From an uncultured Gammaproteobacteria bacterium (GTDB lineage: Bacteria; Pseudomonadota; Gammaproteobacteria; Xanthomonadales; Rhodanobacteraceae), in assembly GCA_963747595.1 (NCBI GenBank), contig CAVVFO010000002.1, positions 1,227,508 through 1,291,507 of the forward strand: a stretch of DNA of 64,000 nt, written 5' to 3'. Shown one piece after another: positions 1,334 through 32,658 of this stretch. How positions within the stretch are numbered: the stretch's first letter is position 1; each line of letters starts with the position of its first letter. Position numbers and translations under genes: made by a program. Under the pieces are notes generated by a model, which ran no database searches, had not been told where the DNA came from, and saw only the letters and a program-made list of their open reading frames with translations.

Positions 1334-1440
1334 GTAGGGCGGACCAAGGAGCATCAGCGACGGATCCGCCTGCTTGCGTGGGCTCACAAACATCACCGCA
1401 AGCAGGCGGCTCCGTCCCTTCGGTCCTTGAGCCACCCTGC
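1334..1440. repeat. GTAG-type REP inverted doublet (REPIN-like), copy 1
   Basis: GTAGGGCGGACCAAGG...GACGGATCCGCCTGCTTGC (1334-1377) faces inverted arm GCAAGCAGGCGGCTCCGTC...CCTTGAGCCACCCTGC (1398-1440), between convergent genes; same family at 31.2-31.4 kb and 32.5-32.7 kb. Confidence 0.85.
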
Positions 1441-2840: not shown

Positions 2841-3170
2841 GACACATGATCGCATTTATCGTCCCGCACAGGAGCCGCCATCGGCGAAAAATCGCGCCAA
2901 CATCCAGACAATCGAAGACATTGCCATGCGCGAATGGTCGTAGCTGGACCTACGAACACGCTGGCATGCCCGGGCCGGGACTTGCCGGTCCACCGAACAA
3001 GCGTGGCCCACGTGCATCCACGCCAGCGCCGGCGCCACGGCGCCCCCGGGCCGCGACTTCGGCAGCGCTTCCTGCTGATTCAACCTGCCAGCCGTGATCC
3101 GCAGACATTGCCGAGGCGCAGGGAGTTCATCTGGCCGGAAACAGCTGAAGACTCCTGCCTCGGTCGGCCC

Positions 3171-3788
3171 TCAAAGGCTTCTGCTTGCCCAACGACGGAC
3201 GCGGCGACGCTGCCACCAGCGATTCAGTTGCAGCGTGTCGATGCTGGTCGGTGCTATCAGGTCCCGATTTTTTCCGTCGAACCTGAACGTGCGCTGCGCG
3301 GCACCGATACTTGCTGATGGGCCATAGAAGCTGATTACCGTGATTTCAACGCTGTTTACCTGCGTTGCACGGTCGTCGTGTTCCTCTCCGCGGTCTTGAT
3401 TTCTACTGGCCTTGATCACCATCTCCCTGAACGTACCGATCTTCATTTCCCCGCTGGAGTCAAGCGGCCCCCGCGAGATCTTGGCATTTTCTTTCTGACT
3501 GTGGTCCGTCATGTCACCAAAAAAAGCCACTGAATTCAGCTTTTCCCCGTTATCTGTATATAAGCTCAGGATAATCTCCTGCACATAAATGGCCTCCCTG
3601 CTCATATTGCTGATGACGCAATCTGCCTGCGAAGCACGTCCTGCGCCCACGTCAATGATCACCAGGGACGAGCGCTGCCGACGGAAGCCCGCCACCAGGA
3701 TATTTGCGTAAAAAATCCAGAACACCAACGTGAATATGTTGACGACGACATTTATGATCGAAACATGGTCCGAGATCCACTGAAACAT
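3171..3788 (-). CDS. Hypothetical membrane-anchored protein, AT-richer than flanks
   Basis: 205-aa ORF from ATG 3788 with N-terminal hydrophobic helix (IINVVVNIFTLVFWIFYANILVAGF) followed by RRQR. Confidence 0.7.
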   Translation of the reverse strand: MFQWISDHVSIINVVVNIFTLVFWIFYANILVAGFRRQRSSLVIIDVGAGRASQADCVISNMSREAIYVQEIILSLYTDNGEKLNSVAFFGDMTDHSQKENAKISRGPLDSSGEMKIGTFREMVIKASRNQDRGEEHDDRATQVNSVEITVISFYGPSASIGAAQRTFRFDGKNRDLIAPTSIDTLQLNRWWQRRRVRRWASRSL

Positions 3789-26188: not shown

Positions 26189-29100
26189 ATGTCCGCACGT
26201 TTCATCCATCTCCACGTCCACAGCGAGTTTTCGCTGGTCGATTCGACCATCCGCATCAAGGCGCTGGTCGAGGCCTGCGTGCGCGCCGACATGCCGGCGG
26301 TGGCGCTGACCGACGTCAACAATCTGTTCTCGCTGGTGAAGTTCTACAAGGCGGCGCAGAATGCGGGCATCAAGCCGATCGTCGGTTGCGACGTGTGGAT
26401 GGCCGCCCCCTCCGACCCCCGGCCGTTCCGCCTGACCCTGCTGTGCCAGGACCGCGATGGCTACCTGAACCTGTCGCGCCTGATTTCGCGTGCGTGGCTG
26501 GAAGGACAGCATGGCGGCCACGCACTGACCGATGCCTCCTGGCTGGATGAATCCTCCAGCCGGGGGCTGATCGCCCTGGCCGGCCCCGACAGCGCCGTGG
26601 CGCGCCTGGCCACTGCCCGGCCCGACGCTGCAGAGCTGGAGCTCCGGCGTCTCAAGCGCCTGTTCGACGACCGCCTGTACCTGGAACTGGTGCGCACCGG
26701 CCGCGACAGCGAACCGGCCTGGAATGCGGCCGCACTCAACCTGGCCGATACGCTGGAACTGCCCGTGGTGGCCAGCAATGACGTGCGCTTCCTGCTGCGC
26801 GAGGATTTCGACGCCCACGAGGCGCGCGTGTGCATCAACCAGGGCCGCATCCTGGCCGACCCGCGACGTCCGCGCGACTACAGCGCCGAGCAGTACCTGA
26901 AATCCCCCGAGGAGATGACGGCGCTGTTCGAGGACCTGCCCGAAGCGCTGGAAAACAGCGTCGAGCTGGCCAAGCGCTGCAATCTGGAGCTGAGCTTCGG
27001 CACGTACTTCCTGCCGGACTTTCCCATTCCCGCCGGATACGACCTGGAAAGCTACATCCGCGCCCAGGCGCGCGAAGGCCTGGAGCAGCGTCTGGCCGTG
27101 CATCCACTGGCCCCGGGAAAGACGCGCGCCGACTATGACGCGCGGCTGGAAAAAGAGCTGGACGTGATCCTTTCCATGGGATTTCCCGGCTACTTCCTGA
27201 TCGTCGCCGACTTCATCCAGTGGGCCAAGGACAACGCCATCCCCGTCGGTCCCGGCCGCGGCTCCGGCGCCGGCTCGCTGGTGGCATGGTCGCTGAAGAT
27301 CACCGACCTGGACCCGCTGCCCTACGAACTACTGTTCGAGCGTTTTCTCAACCCCGAACGCGTGTCCATGCCCGATTTCGACATCGACTTCTGCATGGAC
27401 CGGCGGGACGAGGTCATCGACTACGTGGCGCGCAAGTACGGCCGCGACAAGGTCAGCCAGATCATCACCTACGGCACCATGGCGGCAAAGGCCGTGGTGC
27501 GCGATACCGGCCGCGTGCTGGGCATGGGCTACGGCCACGTCGACTCCATCGCCAAGCTGGTTCCCAACACGCTGGGCATTTCGCTGAGCGAGGCACTGAA
27601 GGAATCGGCGGAGCTGAAGACGCGCTACGACGACGAGGACGAAGTCCGTGAACTGATCGACCTGGCGCTGAAGCTGGAAGACCTCACCCGCAATGCGGGC
27701 AAGCACGCCGGCGGCGTGGTCATTGCGCCCACGCCGCTGACTGACTTCTCGCCGCTGTACGCCGAAGAAGGCGGCGGCGGCGTGGTCACGCAGTTCGACA
27801 AGAACGACGTGGAAGACGTGGGCCTGGTGAAGTTCGACTTCCTCGGCCTGCGCACGCTGACCATCATCGACTGGGCAGTGAAGGCCATCAACGACCGGCT
27901 CGAGAACGAGGGCCGGGACCTGCTGGACATCACCCAGCTGCCGCTCACCGATCCGGAGACCTACGCGCTGTTCGCGCGCGGCGACACCGTGGCCGTGTTC
28001 CAGTTCGAGTCGCGCGGCATGCGCGAACTCCTGAAGCGCGCGCAACCGGATACCTTCGAGGACATCATCGCCCTGGCCGCGCTGTTCCGCCCCGGCCCCC
28101 TGGGCTCCGGGATGGATCGCGACTGGACCGATCGCAAGCACGGCCTGGCCGAGGTCACCTATCCGCATCCGTTACTGGAACCGGTCCTCAAGCCCACCTA
28201 CGGCGTCATCGTCTATCAGGAACAGGTGATGCAGATCGCCCAGGTGCTGGCCGGCTACAGCCTGGGCGGCGCCGACCTGTTGCGTCGTGCCATGGGCAAG
28301 AAGAAGGTCGAGGAGATGGCCAAGCAGCGCGCCATCTTCGAAGCAGGCGCAGCGAAGAACGACATCGATCCGAACGTGGCCACTGCCATCTTCGACCTGA
28401 TGGAGAAATTCGCCGAATACGGCTTCAACAAGTCGCACTCGGCCGCCTACGCGCTGGTCGCCTACCAGACGGCGTGGCTGAAAAAGCACTATCCAGCCGA
28501 ATTCCTGGCCGCGACCCTGTCCTCGGACATGGACAACACCGACAAGGTGGTCAACTTCCTCAACGAGTGCAAGGCGCAGGGGCTGACCGTGCAGCCGCCG
28601 GACGTCAACGATTCGGTCTACATGTTCACCGCCACCGCGCCGGACACCATCCGCTACGGCCTGGGCGCCATCAAGGGCGTGGGCGAAGGCGCCTGTGCCG
28701 CCATGGCCGAGGAACGCCACCGTAACGGACCGTACCGGGATCTGGCCGACTTCTGCCGCCGGGTGGAGCCGTCGCGCTTCAACAAGCGCGTGCTGGATGC
28801 ATTGATCCGTTCCGGCGCCATGGACCGTCTGGCACCGACCCGCGCCAGCCTCGCCGCACAGCTGCCCGAAGCCATGAAGGCCGCCGAGCAGCACCTGCGC
28901 GACCAGGTCTCCGGCCAGAACGACATGTTCGGCAGCGCCGGCCCGGCCGCCATCACCATCGAACTGCCGACATGCCCGGAATGGCCGCTGGAGCAGCTGC
29001 TGGACGGCGAACGCGACACGCTGGGGCACTATCTGTCCGGCCACCCCACCGATCCGTGGAAGGACGTGCTGGCCCAGCTGGCCACCTGCCCGCTGGGCGA

Positions 29101-29683
29101 GATCGTGGATCGCTACCAGCCGCCGGCACGCAAATCTCAGAACGACGACAAGAGCCGCTACCGCCGCGCGCCGGAAACGCCATGGACCGTCGCCGGCATG
29201 GTCACCGCGGTGCGCCGCCGCGGCGACAGCGCCGCCTTCGTGCGCCTGGAAGACGCCACCGGCTCGGTGGAACTGAGTTTCTTCCGCGAGGCGCTCACCG
29301 AGTACGGCCCGTTGCTGACCCGCGACGCCTTGCTGGTGGTCGACGGCGGCCTGTCCATCGACGATTTCTCCGGCGGCTTCCAGGTCCGCGCGCGCCGAGT
29401 GCTGGGTCTGAACGAAGCCTGCGAGCAACTGGCCGGACAGTTGCGGCTGCGCGTCAACGGCATCGGCCCGCCCTTCCTGGACGCGCTGCGTCAGGCCCTT
29501 GAGGCCTACCGCGGCGGCACCACACCGCTACGCCTGTCCGGCTACTGCAATGGCACCGCCCGTGCCGACCTGGACCTGGGGTCCGAATGGCGCGTGCGCG
29601 CCGCACCACAACTCCTGCGCGACCTGCGCGACCTGCCCGGCGTCACCGACGCCCAACTGCGCATGAACCGCCGCAGCGACTGA
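26189..29683 (+). CDS. dnaE: DNA polymerase III alpha subunit
   Basis: PHP domain HLHVHSEFSL, GPGRGSGAGSLV, PDFDIDF, FNKSHSAAY, OB fold; no intein-sized insertion. Confidence 0.98.
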   Translation: MSARFIHLHVHSEFSLVDSTIRIKALVEACVRADMPAVALTDVNNLFSLVKFYKAAQNAGIKPIVGCDVWMAAPSDPRPFRLTLLCQDRDGYLNLSRLISRAWLEGQHGGHALTDASWLDESSSRGLIALAGPDSAVARLATARPDAAELELRRLKRLFDDRLYLELVRTGRDSEPAWNAAALNLADTLELPVVASNDVRFLLREDFDAHEARVCINQGRILADPRRPRDYSAEQYLKSPEEMTALFEDLPEALENSVELAKRCNLELSFGTYFLPDFPIPAGYDLESYIRAQAREGLEQRLAVHPLAPGKTRADYDARLEKELDVILSMGFPGYFLIVADFIQWAKDNAIPVGPGRGSGAGSLVAWSLKITDLDPLPYELLFERFLNPERVSMPDFDIDFCMDRRDEVIDYVARKYGRDKVSQIITYGTMAAKAVVRDTGRVLGMGYGHVDSIAKLVPNTLGISLSEALKESAELKTRYDDEDEVRELIDLALKLEDLTRNAGKHAGGVVIAPTPLTDFSPLYAEEGGGGVVTQFDKNDVEDVGLVKFDFLGLRTLTIIDWAVKAINDRLENEGRDLLDITQLPLTDPETYALFARGDTVAVFQFESRGMRELLKRAQPDTFEDIIALAALFRPGPLGSGMDRDWTDRKHGLAEVTYPHPLLEPVLKPTYGVIVYQEQVMQIAQVLAGYSLGGADLLRRAMGKKKVEEMAKQRAIFEAGAAKNDIDPNVATAIFDLMEKFAEYGFNKSHSAAYALVAYQTAWLKKHYPAEFLAATLSSDMDNTDKVVNFLNECKAQGLTVQPPDVNDSVYMFTATAPDTIRYGLGAIKGVGEGACAAMAEERHRNGPYRDLADFCRRVEPSRFNKRVLDALIRSGAMDRLAPTRASLAAQLPEAMKAAEQHLRDQVSGQNDMFGSAGPAAITIELPTCPEWPLEQLLDGERDTLGHYLSGHPTDPWKDVLAQLATCPLGEIVDRYQPPARKSQNDDKSRYRRAPETPWTVAGMVTAVRRRGDSAAFVRLEDATGSVELSFFREALTEYGPLLTRDALLVVDGGLSIDDFSGGFQVRARRVLGLNEACEQLAGQLRLRVNGIGPPFLDALRQALEAYRGGTTPLRLSGYCNGTARADLDLGSEWRVRAAPQLLRDLRDLPGVTDAQLRMNRRSD

Positions 29684-29705
29684 CCCGCCGTGCCCCCGTA
29701 GGGCG

Positions 29706-30002
29706 TATATGGACTCCTCCTCCTACGCAAGCGTAAACGATGGGAAAGTGGCACCGCGAACGTATATACGGCTTCATGTTGGGAACCGTCGTTCCCGAGC
29801 CTAGATGGGTTGTTCGCACTGGAGCTGTCTTATCGGATCATCGACGCGTCGTGCGTCTGCGCCCTACGCGACGTTTGCTCCAGCGGGTGTGGGCCTTTTT
29901 TCCATCTTCCGATTGCGCTGCGAGATGTGCTTCCGTGCGGGTGAATCAAACGGTGTGACCTGATCTCAAGGTAATGGCTCTAGACGATGATGGCCTGATT
30001 CA
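29706..30002 (-). ncRNA. Candidate bridge/seek guide RNA region
   Basis: Segments match the target halves (29860-29867, 29834-29840) inside stem CTGGAGC/GCTCCAG and the circle-junction halves (29761-29767, 29738-29745); exact RNA ends unknown. Confidence 0.78.
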
Positions 30003-31097
30003 TCAGGCGGCGGCGGGATCGGCCCTGCGCCCGGCGGGGTGATAAGGGCGGTTGTGCTTGATCACGGCATAGATGATGCGCGCCAGGCGATTGGCCACGG
30101 CCACGGCGACCTTGGCGTCGAGTTTGCCGGCATCAAGCAGGCGCCGCGCGAACAGGCACAGGGCATCATCGCGCCTGCGGCAACGCACGAGCACGGCGTG
30201 CGCGCCTTGCACCAGAAGACGGCGCAGGTACGGGTCGCCCCGCTGGGTGATGAACCCCAGACGCCGCGTTTGCCCGCTGGAGGACTCTTTGGGCGTGAGA
30301 CCGAGGCTGGCGGCAAACTGGCGGGCATCGGCGAAGCGCTCCACCTGCGGGCCGATCTCGCCGGCCACGGCGGTGGCGGTGATCAGACCGACACCAAAGA
30401 TGGTCTCGACCTGTGTGGCCACGGCAGAGGCCTTGAAGGCCTCCTTCAACTGACGGTCCATGGCCTTGATATGCGTACGGACCTGATCCAGATGCTCCAG
30501 CGCCAATGCCACGCTGTGATGCAGTAACGGCGTGATCTCGCCGGTGTCATCCTGGCCATCGGCGGCCGCATGCACGCGCTGTATCAGGGCCTTGAATCCG
30601 GCGTCACCCTTGCCGCCCACCATGCCACGCTCGGCCAGCAGCCCGCGGATCTGATTGATGCACTGGGTCTGCTGGCCGATCAGCAGCTCGCGCACCCGAT
30701 GCTGGGCGCACAGATCCTGCTGCTCGAGCGTCTTGACCGGCACCGGGCGTACACGACGGTCGCAATACACCGCGTAGATCGCATCGGCATCGTTGCCGTC
30801 GGTCTTGTTGCCGTGCCGTGCCTTGTTCACGAACTGGGCTGGAAGCAGCTCAGTGGCATGGCTCCGCTGGCGCAGCTGGCGCGACCAGTGATGGGCGCTG
30901 CCACAGGCCTCCATGACGACCGTGCCGCGCGCCGTGTGCGCCTTGGCAAAAAACTCTTTGAACTGTGCACGGGTGTATGTGCGCTGGGCCAAACGCTCGC
31001 CGTGCGGGCCGAACGTGTGCACCTGAAACTTGGCCTTGGCCAGGTCCACGCAGTACACGCGCTGTGACGGCTGGGTGGTGTGGGCGGTAGTATGCAT
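30003..31097 (-). CDS. IS110-family DEDD/serine recombinase (transposase)
   Basis: RuvC-like DEDD residues (CVDLAK, VMEACG, KTDGNDADAI) and C-terminal LGLTPKESSSG with catalytic Ser; GDPYLRRLLVQGA. Confidence 0.95.
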   Translation of the reverse strand: MHTTAHTTQPSQRVYCVDLAKAKFQVHTFGPHGERLAQRTYTRAQFKEFFAKAHTARGTVVMEACGSAHHWSRQLRQRSHATELLPAQFVNKARHGNKTDGNDADAIYAVYCDRRVRPVPVKTLEQQDLCAQHRVRELLIGQQTQCINQIRGLLAERGMVGGKGDAGFKALIQRVHAAADGQDDTGEITPLLHHSVALALEHLDQVRTHIKAMDRQLKEAFKASAVATQVETIFGVGLITATAVAGEIGPQVERFADARQFAASLGLTPKESSSGQTRRLGFITQRGDPYLRRLLVQGAHAVLVRCRRRDDALCLFARRLLDAGKLDAKVAVAVANRLARIIYAVIKHNRPYHPAGRRADPAAA

Positions 31098-31191
31098 GTC
31101 GGACTCCTCTTCGCTGACAGGTAGGTTCTACGGAACTCCTACCCTAAAGGCACATCGATGCCGTCCTGGCGGGGAGGAGTCCATCCCATCA

Positions 31192-31449
31192 GATCAAGGA
31201 ACGATGAGTGACGGATCCGCCTGCTGGCCGGAAGCCACCCTGACGCCCCCAAAGCTGCTCCTGAATCGCCGCAGCGAGTAGAACAGCCGGCGGGCAGTGC
31301 CCGCCCTACACAATCGCAGGATCGTAGGGCGGGCACTGCCCGACGTCTTCCCTGCGCTGTAACGAGCCGACATTTGATTGCTCGCCGAAAACCACCTGAT
31401 TTCCCGCAAGCAGGCGGCTCCGTCACTGGCGTTCCTTGAGCCGCCCTGC
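31192..31449. repeat. REP cluster: remainder of the IS-split arm, nested short REP doublet, and right arm
   Basis: GATCAAGG...GACGGATCCGCCTGC (31192-31224); perfect 19-bp inverted pair CGGGCAGTGCCCGCCCTAC (31291-31309) / GTAGGGCGGGCACTGCCCG (31324-31342); right arm 31406-31449. Confidence 0.85.
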
Positions 31450-31553
31450 GCGATAAACGCAACTTCCGCCTTCATTTGCCGCACCGCGCCCGCCTGTCGC
31501 GGCATATGCTCACCGGCTATACTGGTCGTCTTTATGGGCTCCAAACGCTGCAC

Positions 31554-32513
31554 ATGAACCCGAATTTCCTCGATTTCGAACAACCGATCGCCGAGCTGGA
31601 AGCGAAGATCGACGAATTGCGCAATGCCAGCCACGGGCAGGCATTCGACATCGACGAGGAAGTCTCGCGCCTGCGTGGCAAGCTCAAGACCAAGACGGCG
31701 GAGATCTTCAGGAACCTCACGCCGTGGCAGATCACCCAGCTCTCGCGCCATCCGCGGCGCCCGTACACGCTGGATTACCTGGGCGTGATGTGCGAGGAAT
31801 TCCGCGAACTGGCCGGTGACCGCGCCTACGCCGACGACAAGGCCATCGTCGGTGGCTTGGCGCGCATCAACGGCCGCGCCGTGATGGTCATCGGCCACCA
31901 GAAGGGTCGCAAGACCAAGGAAAAGATGCTGCGCAACTTCGGCATGCCGCGCCCCGAAGGCTACCGCAAGGCGCTGCGCCTGATGAAGATGGCCGAACGC
32001 TTCGGCCTGCCGGTACTGACATTCATCGACACCATGGGCGCCTATCCCGGCGTCGGTGCCGAGGAACGCGGCCAGTCCGAGGCCATCGCCCGCAATCTGC
32101 TGGAAATGGCCGAGCTGCGCGTGCCCATCGTATGCACAGTGATCGGCGAGGGTGGTTCCGGCGGTGCGCTGGCCATCGGCGTGGGCGATCGCGTCAACAT
32201 GCTGCAGTACTCCACCTATTCCGTGATCACGCCGGAAGGTTGCGCCACCATCCTGTGGCGCAGTGCCGAACGCGCCAAGGACGCCGCCGAGGCGCTGGGC
32301 ATGACCGCACCCAAGATCAAGGACATCGGCCTGATCGACAAGATCATCCGCGAACCGCTGGGCGGTGCGCACCGGAATCCGCATTCCATCGCCGTGCGTC
32401 TGAAAGTGGTGCTCATGAACCAGCTCGACGAACTCGGCGCCCTTCCCGTGGACGACCTGCTGGAGCAACGCTACCAGCGCCTGCGGAAATTCGGCGCCTA
32501 CACCGGCGGCTGA
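31554..32513 (+). CDS. accA: Acetyl-CoA carboxylase carboxyltransferase alpha subunit
   Basis: [44 protein letters not shown]. Confidence 0.98.
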
Positions 32514-32534: not shown

Positions 32535-32658
32535 GTAGGGCGCATCAAGGAGCGTCCGCGACGGATCCGCCTGCTTTCCGGGGCTCGGTGGCTTGCGGTA
32601 AACCAACCGTCCCAGCGAAGCAGGCGGCTCCGTCGCTTTGCTCCTTGAGCCACCCTAC
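32535..32658. repeat. GTAG-type REP inverted doublet, copy 3
   Basis: GTAGGGCGCATCAAGG...GACGGATCCGCCTGCTT (32535-32576) and inverted arm ending CCTTGAGCCACCCTAC (32618-32658). Confidence 0.85.

What the first reader, a model, noticed from the sequence alone, without database searches (positions are those of the whole stretch)
29731..29770. Donor-binding loop, palindromic CG core and a mismatched junction
Seen: CGATGGGA (29738-45) is the reverse complement of TCCCATCG, and CGTATAT (29761-67) equals core plus the other end. Together they match the predicted circle junction TCCCAT-CG-TATAT. In the RNA these two guides occur in the opposite left/right order to the target loop. The chromosomal right junction reads CA (31190-91) instead of CG. 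Inference: either IS1111 synapse geometry differs from the IS621 model, or the self-complementary core allows both orientations; the second core base appears to tolerate a mismatch.
Basis: partly seen in the sequence, partly recalled or inferred. Interest (0 to 1): 0.75.

Follow-up and report, generated by a model that had tools for sequence, protein, structure and literature searches.

The report
IS1111-type insertion sequence bridge RNA
This is an ordinary member of a known class of RNA-guided jumping genes.

Summary
Window 29706-31191 (minus strand) is an IS110-family, IS1111-group insertion sequence. It sits in a REP-like hairpin between dnaE and accA. Its 3' non-coding region encodes a bridge/seek RNA.

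The quoted sequences are all present. CGTATAT (29761-67) is a genuine donor guide, supported by covariation with the right end in 58 relatives (p=1e-25). CGATGGGA (29738-45) is not a loop guide. It lies in the 3' strand of a long closing helix that covaries across the family (p=2e-21). The left-end guide that covaries across the family is CCCAUC (29804-09), on the 5' side of the same internal loop (p=3e-12).

With that assignment both loops have the same order. Read in the flipped DNA frame, the IS621 rules, including handshake bases, predict the observed junctions. No altered geometry and no two-way use of the palindromic core is needed, and orientation is fixed in 12 of 12 relatives.

The CA at 31190-91 is real, but it is not a tolerated target mismatch. 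It is the conserved first dinucleotide of the left end (TG in transposase orientation, 11 of 15 close relatives). The empty target reads CG. TG also completes a junction promoter, TTGCGT-17-TATGAT, so the circle junction probably carries TG rather than the predicted CG.

The parts
29706..31191 (-). Whole insertion sequence (1486 bp), with the left-end dinucleotide counted as part of the element
   Evidence: 12-nt subterminal inverted repeats. Ends are conserved in 15 close relatives.
30003..31097 (-). DEDD transposase/recombinase, 364 aa
   Evidence: Pfam PF01548 (E=5.6e-12) and PF02371 (E=6e-22). The GLTPKESSSG motif is visible in the translation.
29709..29720 (.). Right-end subterminal inverted repeat, ATGGACTCCTCC
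   Evidence: 100% complementary to 31173-84 (pair I24).
31173..31184 (.). Left-end subterminal inverted repeat
   Evidence: pair I24.
31185..31191 (-). 7-nt left-end extension TGATGGG (transposase orientation). 31190-91 is the 'mismatched' dinucleotide.
   Evidence: TG-ATGGG is found in 11 of 15 close relatives whatever the flank; CG in 3 and AG in 1.
29704..29708 (-). Right-end extension ATA (29706-08) plus the target-derived dinucleotide CG (29704-05)
   Evidence: The right-end dinucleotide follows the core encoded in the target loop: CG; CA in L007, whose guide has UG; TG in L061, whose guide has CA.
29761..29767 (-). Donor-loop 3' guide, AUAUACG.
   Evidence: The matching position covaries with the right end in 58 relatives. 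The cognate longest match averages 7.1 nt against 4.6 for non-cognate pairs, p=1e-25.
29804..29809 (-). Donor-loop 5' guide, CCCAUC, complementary to left-end GATGGG
   Evidence: Invariant in 14 of 15 close relatives; the divergent L079 has it displaced. The position covaries with the left end across clades, for example UUCAUCA, CUCAUCA, GCCAUCA, UGCCAUUCG, AUUCCAU; p=3e-12. Unpaired in the fold.
29756..29817 (-). Donor-binding arm: outer stem GCGAAC/GUUCGC (29812-17 / 29756-61), inner stem GGCU/AGCC, and hairpin GGGAAC/GUUCCC
   Evidence: RNAalifold on 12 relatives, with compensatory changes such as UA to GC in three sequences; single-sequence fold.
29818..29884 (-). Target-binding arm: outer stem GCUGGAGC/GCUCCAGU, 5' guide CGUAGGGCG (29860-68), hairpin (29843-57), and 3' guide plus handshake bases UGAUCCG-AU (29832-40)
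   Evidence: The guides covary with the flanks in relatives. Five outer-stem pairs (columns 39, 42, 43 and, more weakly, 41, 44) show compensatory changes.
29725..29753 (-). 3' strand of the long closing helix P1.
   Evidence: Fold. The duplex between the cognate 5' region and tail averages -27.1 kcal/mol against -19.8 for non-cognate pairs in 54 relatives, p=1.7e-21.
29889..29918 (-). 5' strand of closing helix P1, with the conserved GAUGG motif
29725..29730 (-). Predicted -35 element (TTGCGT) of the promoter formed at the circle junction. The -10 element TA|TG|AT spans the junction.
   Evidence: A -35-like TTGnnn (TTGCnn in most) lies 17 nt (15-19 allowed in the search) upstream of the junction hexamer in nearly all relatives. 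This is an inference; nothing was measured.
29696..29705 (+). Left half of the REP-like target, CCGTAGGGCG
   Evidence: There are other copies of the repeat in the window. An empty-site consensus is seen in metagenome contigs.
31192..31221 (+). Right half of the REP-like target, GATCAAGGAACG...GGATCCGCC, including the hairpin's second arm
   Evidence: The arms GGCG|GATC and GATCCGCC are complementary only if the original centre was CG.

Best explanation
The region is the 3' non-coding part of an IS1111-group (IS110-family) insertion sequence, read on the minus strand.

RNA structure. The region encodes an RNA of about 200 nt with a long closing helix and two arms. Each arm is an internal loop that carries two guides.
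[quoted passage not shown] The next two bases, AU, match the first bases of the left end and act as handshake bases.
- Donor arm: 5'-CCCAUC (29804-09) pairs with the left end GATGGG. [quoted passage not shown]

Guide order. Both loops have the same order. Read in the DNA frame of the opposite strand, this is the IS621 arrangement of left guide, stem-loop, then right guide plus handshake. The IS621 joining rule then gives the junctions actually seen.

The segment at 29738-45 is the 3' strand of the closing helix, where CCAUC pairs with GAUGG at 29902-06. It resembles a left-end guide because the helix partner resembles the left end.

The junction dinucleotide. TG at the left junction is carried by the element. 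CG at the right junction comes from the target. The circle junction is inferred to read ATATA-TG-ATGGGA, which creates a -10 box TATGAT placed 17 nt after TTGCGT.

What is shown and what is inferred. The anatomy, the covariation and the empty-site sequence are shown. The circle junction, promoter activity, RNA ends and chemistry are inferred.
For: - Transposase domains and subterminal repeats.
- Target-guide covariation with flanks in 15 close relatives.
- Donor 3' guide against the right end: p=1e-25. Donor 5' guide against the left end: p=3e-12. Sense and antisense controls are not significant.
- Consensus structure in which 17 of 40 pairs show compensatory changes.
- The 201-nt fold has identical minimum-free-energy and centroid structures, -73.7 kcal/mol, z=-2.8. 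The guides are unpaired and the octamer is paired.
- Closing-helix test, cognate against non-cognate: p=1.7e-21, with compensatory examples CAUGG/CCAUG, GACGG/CCGUC and GUUGAA/UUCAAC.
- Empty-site consensus GTAGGGCGGATCAAGG and REP hairpin complementarity.
- TG is conserved at the left end.
- Junction promoter geometry. The left-end dinucleotide lies closer to TATAAT than the right-end one in 33 of 41 cases where the two differ.
- Published background: the order of target matches is reversed in IS1111 relative to IS110 (PMC11187229). Bridge RNAs are predicted in the right end of 93% of IS1111 elements, including ISPa11 (PMC11208160). IS621 loop and handshake definitions come from PMC11208158.
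Against: - No experiment or read data exist for this element. No RNA-seq run and no circle-junction read was found.
- The donor 5' guide is only 6 nt here.
- The donor 3' guide reads CG, whereas the inferred donor dinucleotide TG would leave a C·A mismatch before strand exchange.
- The tail octamer matches the left end better than the closing helix alone requires (8 of 8 with CG). A weak cognate signal between tail and left end exists in the family (p=0.005), so a second role is not excluded.
- For ISEc11, a short RNA containing only the target loop sufficed for transposition (PMC11187229). RNA-guided donor recognition in IS1111 elements is therefore still unproven.
- The relatives are phylogenetically related, so the p-values overstate independence.
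Confidence: 0.8

Rival explanations
1. The donor loop consists of AUAUACG (29761-67) and UCCCAUCG (29738-45). These lie in the opposite order to the target loop, so either IS1111 synapsis differs from IS621 or the palindromic CG core lets either orientation react.
For: - The octamer is a perfect complement of CG+ATGGGA, and chance gives this in 1.1% of shuffles.
- Similar octamers (UCCCAUCA) occur at the same place in L001, L058 and L059. There are 7-8-nt matches in a few distant relatives: L112, L127 and L101.
- The cognate signal between tail and left end is weak but significant, p=0.005.
Against: - The segment lies outside the donor-arm stem, and no stem-loop separates the two proposed guides.
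- 6 of its 8 bases are paired in the fold.
- L007, L008 and L063 have the same left end but no such sequence. There the tail is instead complementary to their own 5' region.
- The internal-loop segment is invariant and covaries far more strongly.
- Insertion orientation is fixed in 12 of 12 relatives.
Confidence: 0.07
2. Dual use. The tail forms the closing helix in the free RNA. When the helix opens, for example during excision from the chromosome, the tail also pairs with the left-end junction as an auxiliary guide.
For: - Three bases of the octamer (U45, C44, G38) match the left end. C44 and G38 are unpaired in the helix, and U45 pairs there with an A.
- In relatives the base after CCAUC is often A, which pairs with the T of TGATGGG.
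- A weak cognate signal exists.
Against: - The signal comes mainly from one clade of related sequences.
- The three extra bases have about a 1 in 64 chance expectation once CCAUC is fixed.
- No known IS110 or IS1111 mechanism uses a third donor guide.
Confidence: 0.1
3. The left-junction T is a mutation of an original CG, or a target polymorphism. It would be a one-off tolerated mismatch, and the circle junction would carry CG.
For: - All RNA guide segments of this element that read both core bases encode CG.
- Three relatives (L058, L063, L079) have CG at the left junction.
Against: - TG is at the left junction in 11 of 15 independent insertions.
- Analogous element-specific dinucleotides (TA, GA) occur in other clades. 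I saw no reciprocal pattern, that is, the target's dinucleotide at the left junction with the element's at the right.
- The empty site and the REP hairpin say the target was CG.
- The left-end version gives the better -10 box in 33 of 41 cases.
Confidence: 0.25

Closest known systems
IS1111-group insertion sequences with a seekRNA (ISEc11, ISPa11, ISKpn4; Siddiquee et al. 2024, PMC11187229)
   Same: - DEDD transposase and subterminal inverted repeats.
- A 7-nt left extension and no target duplication.
- A long non-coding region downstream of the transposase.
- In the RNA, the top-strand complement of the target precedes the bottom-strand match.
- Insertion into a REP. The ISPa11 target GTAGGG*CG shares the left half of this element's target.
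   Different: - The transposase is at most 63% identical to anything found, and the element has no name in the collections searched.
- The right half of the target differs: GATCAAGG against aATAACCGC.
- That paper did not assign donor guides.
IS621 bridge RNA (Durrant et al. 2024, PMC11208160; Hiraizumi et al. 2024, PMC11208158)
   Same: - Two internal loops, each holding a guide, a stem-loop and a second guide.
- One guide pairs with the bottom strand on one side of the core, and the other pairs with the top strand on the other side.
- Two handshake bases follow the 3' guide.
- A promoter forms at the circle junction.
   Different: - The RNA is at the right end, downstream of the gene.
- Guide order is mirrored in the transposase frame.
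- A long closing helix encloses both arms.
- The core is YG rather than CT, and the donor and target dinucleotides differ by a transition.
- The subterminal repeats are long.
Predicted IS1111 bridge RNAs, including ISPa11 (Durrant et al. 2024, Extended Data Fig. 10c)
   Same: Target-binding and donor-binding nucleotides are predicted in the right-end RNA.
   Different: The figure could not be read here. The text says donor nucleotides often lie in a multi-loop, whereas here they lie in a simple internal loop of one arm of a three-way junction.
Copy-out and top-strand insertion model for an IS110 element (Sun et al. 2025 preprint, 10.1101/2025.10.25.684509)
   Same: Exchange of a single strand would explain why the left junction keeps the element's dinucleotide and the right junction keeps the target's.
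   Different: That study concerns a different subgroup, and the model has not been tested for IS1111 elements or for this element.

Membership tests
IS110 family, IS1111 group | DEDD (RuvC-like) N-terminal domain plus the PF02371 C-terminal domain, with the G-L-x-P-x4-S/T-G motif | tested here: met
   PF01548 E=5.6e-12 and PF02371 E=6e-22. GLTPKESSSG is in the translation. G266, E271 and G275 are invariant in alignment A1.
IS110 family, IS1111 group | Subterminal inverted repeats of 7-17 bp | tested here: met
   A 12-bp perfect pair at 29709-20 and 31173-84, set in 3 nt from the right terminus and 7 nt from the left terminus.
IS110 family, IS1111 group | The long non-coding region lies downstream of the transposase gene | tested here: met
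   282 nt lie between the stop codon (30003) and the right repeat, against 76 nt upstream of the start codon.
IS110 family, IS1111 group | Sequence-specific, orientation-specific insertion without target duplication | tested here: met
   The element sits in a REP-like repeat. The empty-site consensus reads GTAGGGCGGATCAAGG. Orientation is fixed in 12 of 12 relatives. The flanking dinucleotides are not identical.
IS110 family, IS1111 group | seekRNA in which the top-strand complement of the target precedes the bottom-strand match | tested here: met
   GUAGGGCG (29867-60) precedes UGAUCCG (29840-34) in the RNA, and both covary with the flanks in relatives.
IS110 family, IS1111 group | Circular intermediate with a junction promoter; RNA bound by the transposase and required for movement | not testable with these tools
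   There is only a sequence prediction, TTGCGT-17-TATGAT. No reads or RNA data were available.
IS621-type bridge RNA (IS110 group) | Two internal loops, each with two guides around a stem-loop, one loop for the target and one for the donor | tested here: met
IS621-type bridge RNA (IS110 group) | RNA encoded in the left end upstream of the recombinase, with the left guide 5' of the right guide in the recombinase frame | tested here: not met
   The RNA is downstream, in the right end. The order is right guide then left guide in both loops. The element works like IS621 but is not a member of that subgroup.
IS621-type bridge RNA (IS110 group) | An identical CT core in donor and target, duplicated at both junctions | tested here: not met
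   TG at the left junction and CG at the right junction. Family-wide, the two are either equal or differ at one base, usually a transition.
IS621-type bridge RNA (IS110 group) | Handshake bases 3' of the top-strand guides that match the non-cognate partner | tested here: inconclusive
   The target-loop 3' guide is followed by AU, matching the first bases of the left end, in most relatives. The donor-loop 3' guide extends 2 nt into the right flank in many clades, for example ACACAUG-AC and AUGUAAG-CG. Here it is UU opposite GG, which gives wobble pairs only. No dedicated statistic was computed.

The most novel reading that the evidence does not exclude
Across the family, the left junction keeps an element-specific dinucleotide and the right junction keeps the dinucleotide specified by the target. 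I found no reciprocal cases among the relatives listed; the figure of about 27 to 0 is my hand tally. The 3' guides of the RNA match the post-exchange products rather than the donor's own dinucleotide.

This would be a natural footprint of single-strand (first-strand only) transfer followed by replication in IS1111 elements. The element's dinucleotide would be held by selection because it forms positions 3-4 of the -10 box of the junction promoter. The tail octamer might additionally act as an auxiliary left-end guide.
Probability: 0.35. Interest if true: 0.55.

Novelty: new member of a known kind. Interest (0 to 1): 0.3.

Why it matters
The element is an unnamed relative of known RNA-guided insertion sequences, so its existence is not surprising.

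The useful result is a correction. In IS1111-type elements the donor guides sit in one internal loop, in the same order as the target guides. The sequence near the right end that looks like a left-end guide is a structural helix. Anyone reprogramming such elements would need to change 29804-09 and 29761-67, not 29738-45.

The comparative data also give a testable hint. The donor and target dinucleotides differ systematically and are inherited asymmetrically. That bears on the current debate over whether these recombinases exchange one strand or both.

Tried and rejected
- Rfam search of 29000-32000 at a permissive threshold gave only chance-level hits (mir-641, p27_CRE) on unrelated positions and no bridge-RNA family.
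- Exact-protein look-up of the transposase found no contig on record. Other copies in the same genome could therefore not be compared.
- The search for sequencing runs found only metagenome contigs, with no RNA runs and no raw reads. RNA ends and the circle junction could not be observed. The contigs did supply an empty-site consensus.
- The window holds no second copy of the element and no perfect empty target.
- A plasmid protein search gave only unnamed 'IS110 family transposase' hits at 41% identity or less.
- One preprint on half-match recombination could not be opened.
- I considered that the left-junction T arose by mutation that locks the copy against excision. I rejected this as the main explanation because the same base recurs in 11 of 15 independent insertions and analogous dinucleotides recur in other clades.
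- I considered a one-base core or shifted cut sites. Neither reproduces the observed junctions.

Full report
**What is at the locus.** The finding lies in the 3' non-coding part of an insertion sequence on the minus strand. The ORF at 31097-30003 encodes a 364-aa protein with the two domains of IS110-family transposases, PF01548 and PF02371. A perfect 12-nt inverted repeat, ATGGACTCCTCC, sits at 29709-20 and 31173-84. It is set in 3 nt from one terminus and 7 nt from the other. A long non-coding region follows the gene. These are the defining features of the IS1111 group (PMC11187229, PMC11208160).

In transposase orientation the element reads: ccttgatc-TG-ATGGG-[repeat]...[repeat]-ATA-CG-ccctacggg. 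It lies 20 bp after the stop codon of a dnaE-like ORF and upstream of an accA-like ORF (gene names from my own reading of the translations).

**Check of the observation.** Every quoted string is at the stated coordinates. In 20,000 dinucleotide-preserving shuffles of the 282-nt non-coding region, CGATGGGA appears in 1.1% and CGTATAT in 1.2%.

The target-matching segments are also present. On the plus strand they are CGCCCTAC (29860-67) and CGGATCA (29834-40). In the RNA they read GUAGGGCG...UGAUCCG.

**Relatives.** The transposase has no close relative. The best hits are 52-63% identical. Scans of genome and metagenome contigs returned 137 loci. In 79 of them I could locate both ends through the subterminal repeats.

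Fifteen form a close clade with the same ends (TG/CG-ATGGG-ATGGACTCC ... GGAGTCCAT-ATA-NN) but different flanks. In this clade the 5' target segment changes with the right flank. Examples:
- GUAGGGCG with CGCCCTAC
- GUAGCCCG with CGGGCTAC
- GUAGGUCG with CGACCTAC
- GUAGAGCCG with CGGCTCTAC
- GUAGGGUG with CACCCTAC
- GAGGCA with TGCCTC

The 3' target segment changes with the left flank. Examples:
- GGUUCCG with GGTTC
- CACACCG with CACAC
- CAUCCG with CATC
- GCUCCCG with GCTCC

This confirms the target loop. [quoted passage not shown]

**Where the donor guides are.** Across all clades, a segment 45-55 nt upstream of the right repeat has the same sense as the right end plus junction, and it changes with it. 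Examples are ATATACG, ATACATGG, ACACATGAC, ATACAGGTA, ATGTAAGCG and ATATATAC. A segment 82-100 nt upstream is complementary to the left end and changes with it:
- CCCAUC with GATGGG
- UUCAUCA with TGATGAA
- CUCAUCA with TGATGAG
- GCCAUCA with TGATGGC
- UCCCAUU with AATGGGA
- UGCCAUUCG with CGAATGGCA
- AUUCCAU with ATGGAAT

I compared cognate with non-cognate pairs in 58 non-redundant loci. The right-end guide has a mean longest match of 7.1 nt against 4.6 (p=1e-25). The left-end guide has 5.8 against 4.7 (p=3e-12). Sense and antisense controls are flat.

In the window these two segments are AUAUACG (29767-61) and CCCAUC (29809-04). RNAalifold on 12 close relatives places them on the two sides of one internal loop. 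That loop is bounded by the outer stem GCGAAC/GUUCGC and by the inner stem GGCU/AGCC with its hairpin. In the alignment as a whole, 17 of 40 pairs show compensatory changes. The target loop has the same design.

The octamer at 29738-45 lies 3' of the donor-arm stem. At this position L007, L008 and L063, which have the same left end, carry unrelated sequence.

I folded the 5' region upstream of the target arm against the tail between the donor arm and the right repeat in 54 non-redundant relatives.
- Cognate pairs average -27.1 kcal/mol and non-cognate pairs -19.8 (p=1.7e-21).
- The median rank of the cognate tail is 2 of 54.
- Compensatory examples are CAUGG/CCAUG, GACGG/CCGUC, UGAGCA/UGCUCA, GUUGAA/UUCAAC and GAUGGCA/UGCCAUC.

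The family therefore has a long closing helix that encloses both arms.

The 201-nt RNA from 29921 to 29721 folds into exactly this shape. The minimum-free-energy and centroid structures are identical at -73.7 kcal/mol, with z=-2.8. CCAUC (29743-39) pairs with the conserved GAUGG (29906-02), and U45 pairs with an A. Six of the eight octamer bases are thus in the helix, while both internal-loop guides are unpaired.

The tail does show a weak cognate signal towards the left end (p=0.005), mostly within the close clade. I therefore keep a minor 'dual use' rival.

**Consequence for geometry.** With the internal-loop assignment, both loops run right guide then left guide in the transposase frame. 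Now take the window's plus strand as the top strand. The 5' segments then have the sense of left half plus core (GTAGGG-CG and CCCAT-C). The 3' segments pair with core plus right half (CG-GATCA and CG-TATAT). This is the IS621 arrangement (PMC11208158).

The IS621 rule joins left target to right donor and left donor to right target. It predicts GTAGGG-CG-TATAT and TCCCAT-core-GATCA, which are the two junctions seen at 29698-29710 and 31184-31196.

The two bases after the target 3' guide (AU) match the end of the left donor. In many clades the donor 3' guide runs 2 nt into the right flank. This is what the handshake guides of IS621 do.

Nothing requires a different synapse. Nothing suggests that the palindromic core is used in both directions. 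In the 12 close relatives with a ..CTAC half-site, it is always next to the right end.

**The CA/CG difference.** The window contains four more copies of a REP-like repeat, CGTAGGGCGGnyCAAGGArC...GACGGAkCCGCCTGCTT. In the occupied copy the hairpin arms are GGCG|GATC and GATCCGCC. They are complementary only if the centre was CG. Metagenome contigs that hold the right flank continue leftwards as ...CCCACGTAGGGCGGATCAAGGAACG, which is an empty site with CG. The target core was therefore CG, as every target guide says.

TG at the left junction is present in 11 of the 15 close relatives, with CG in three and AG in one. The right-junction dinucleotide, in contrast, follows the target loop.

Other clades behave the same way. 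The two dinucleotides are either equal (TG/TG, AG/AG, TA/TA) or the left one is element-specific and differs at one base, usually a transition (TA/TG, GA/GG, TG/CG). I found no case of the reciprocal pattern.

The left dinucleotide also forms positions 3-4 of a hexamer made at the circle junction from the last two right-end bases, the dinucleotide, and AT. A TTGnnn motif (TTGCnn in most relatives) lies 17 nt upstream of it in nearly all relatives. Where the two dinucleotides differ, the left-end version is closer to TATAAT in 33 of 41 cases, and the four exceptions are anchoring errors. For the window this gives TTGCGT-17-TATGAT, against TACGAT with CG.

This step is inferred, not observed.

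The asymmetric inheritance is what exchange of only the first strand followed by replication would give. That mechanism was proposed for another IS110 element in a preprint (10.1101/2025.10.25.684509). One point remains open: the donor 3' guide encodes CG, so it would mismatch a TG donor before exchange.

**Comparison with what is known.** The element passes every sequence-testable criterion of the IS1111 group. It works like the IS621 bridge-RNA system but fails three IS621-subgroup criteria: RNA position, guide order in the gene frame, and an identical CT core. Reversal of the target matches in IS1111 elements is published (PMC11187229). Donor guides were predicted for ISPa11 and others (PMC11208160, Extended Data Fig. 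10c, which I could not read here). For ISEc11 a short RNA with only the target loop sufficed for movement, so RNA-guided donor recognition in this group is still unproven.

**Verdict.** This is a new member of a known kind. Interest is low to moderate. The residual value lies in the family-wide closing helix, the placement of the donor loop, and the asymmetry of the junction dinucleotides.

Noticed in passing
window 1334-1400 (+), 31385-31449 (-), 32535-32600 (+), 32595-32658 (-), plus the occupied copy at 29696-29705 / 31192-31230: There is a REP-like repeat family, CGTAGGGCGGnyCAAGGArC...GACGGAkCCGCCTGCTT, with hairpin arms GGCGGATC/GATCCGCC. Only the occupied copy matches both target guides exactly. 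The stretch 31379-31455 has very high depth in four metagenomes, up to 1133.
   Followed up: partly
window 31285-31348: A second palindromic repeat has 25-nt arms that are 92% complementary and contains GTAGGGCGGGCAC. It shares the GTAGGGCG half of the target but not the GATCA half.
   Followed up: no
L003 about 3040-3070 and 3344-3365: The sequence that follows the right end (GGATGGGCGAGCAACCTGCAT) is the same as the start of the non-coding region just after the transposase stop. This suggests a duplicated or tandem right-end/RNA module. Its target guides do not match its flanks.
   Followed up: partly
L009, non-coding region about 3160-3260: There is a tandem duplication of the whole target-binding arm, with two copies of ...CGUCGCGUAGCAGCACGACGCAUCACGCGUCACAGCUC....
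   Followed up: no
L006 1876-1904 and 3331-3359: The right terminus is replaced by an inverted copy of the left terminus, a 29-nt perfect inverted repeat CAATTGAACTGATGGGATGGACTCCTCCC. The element is therefore bounded by two left ends.
   Followed up: no
L058 and L059: These are two closely related elements in the same kind of target (gctgcgctgctcc | ccctac). They differ at the left junction, CG against TG, which shows that both forms occur within one closely related pair of elements.
   Followed up: partly
window 29725-29730, with relatives: The conserved GCTTGCG motif next to the right repeat does two jobs. It is the outermost 3' strand of the RNA closing helix, and it is the -35-like box of the predicted junction promoter.
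   Followed up: partly
window 26189-29683 and 31476-32513: The element sits in the short spacer between a dnaE-like ORF (1164 aa) and an accA-like ORF (345 aa), 20 bp after the dnaE stop. The gene names come from my reading of the translations only.
   Followed up: no
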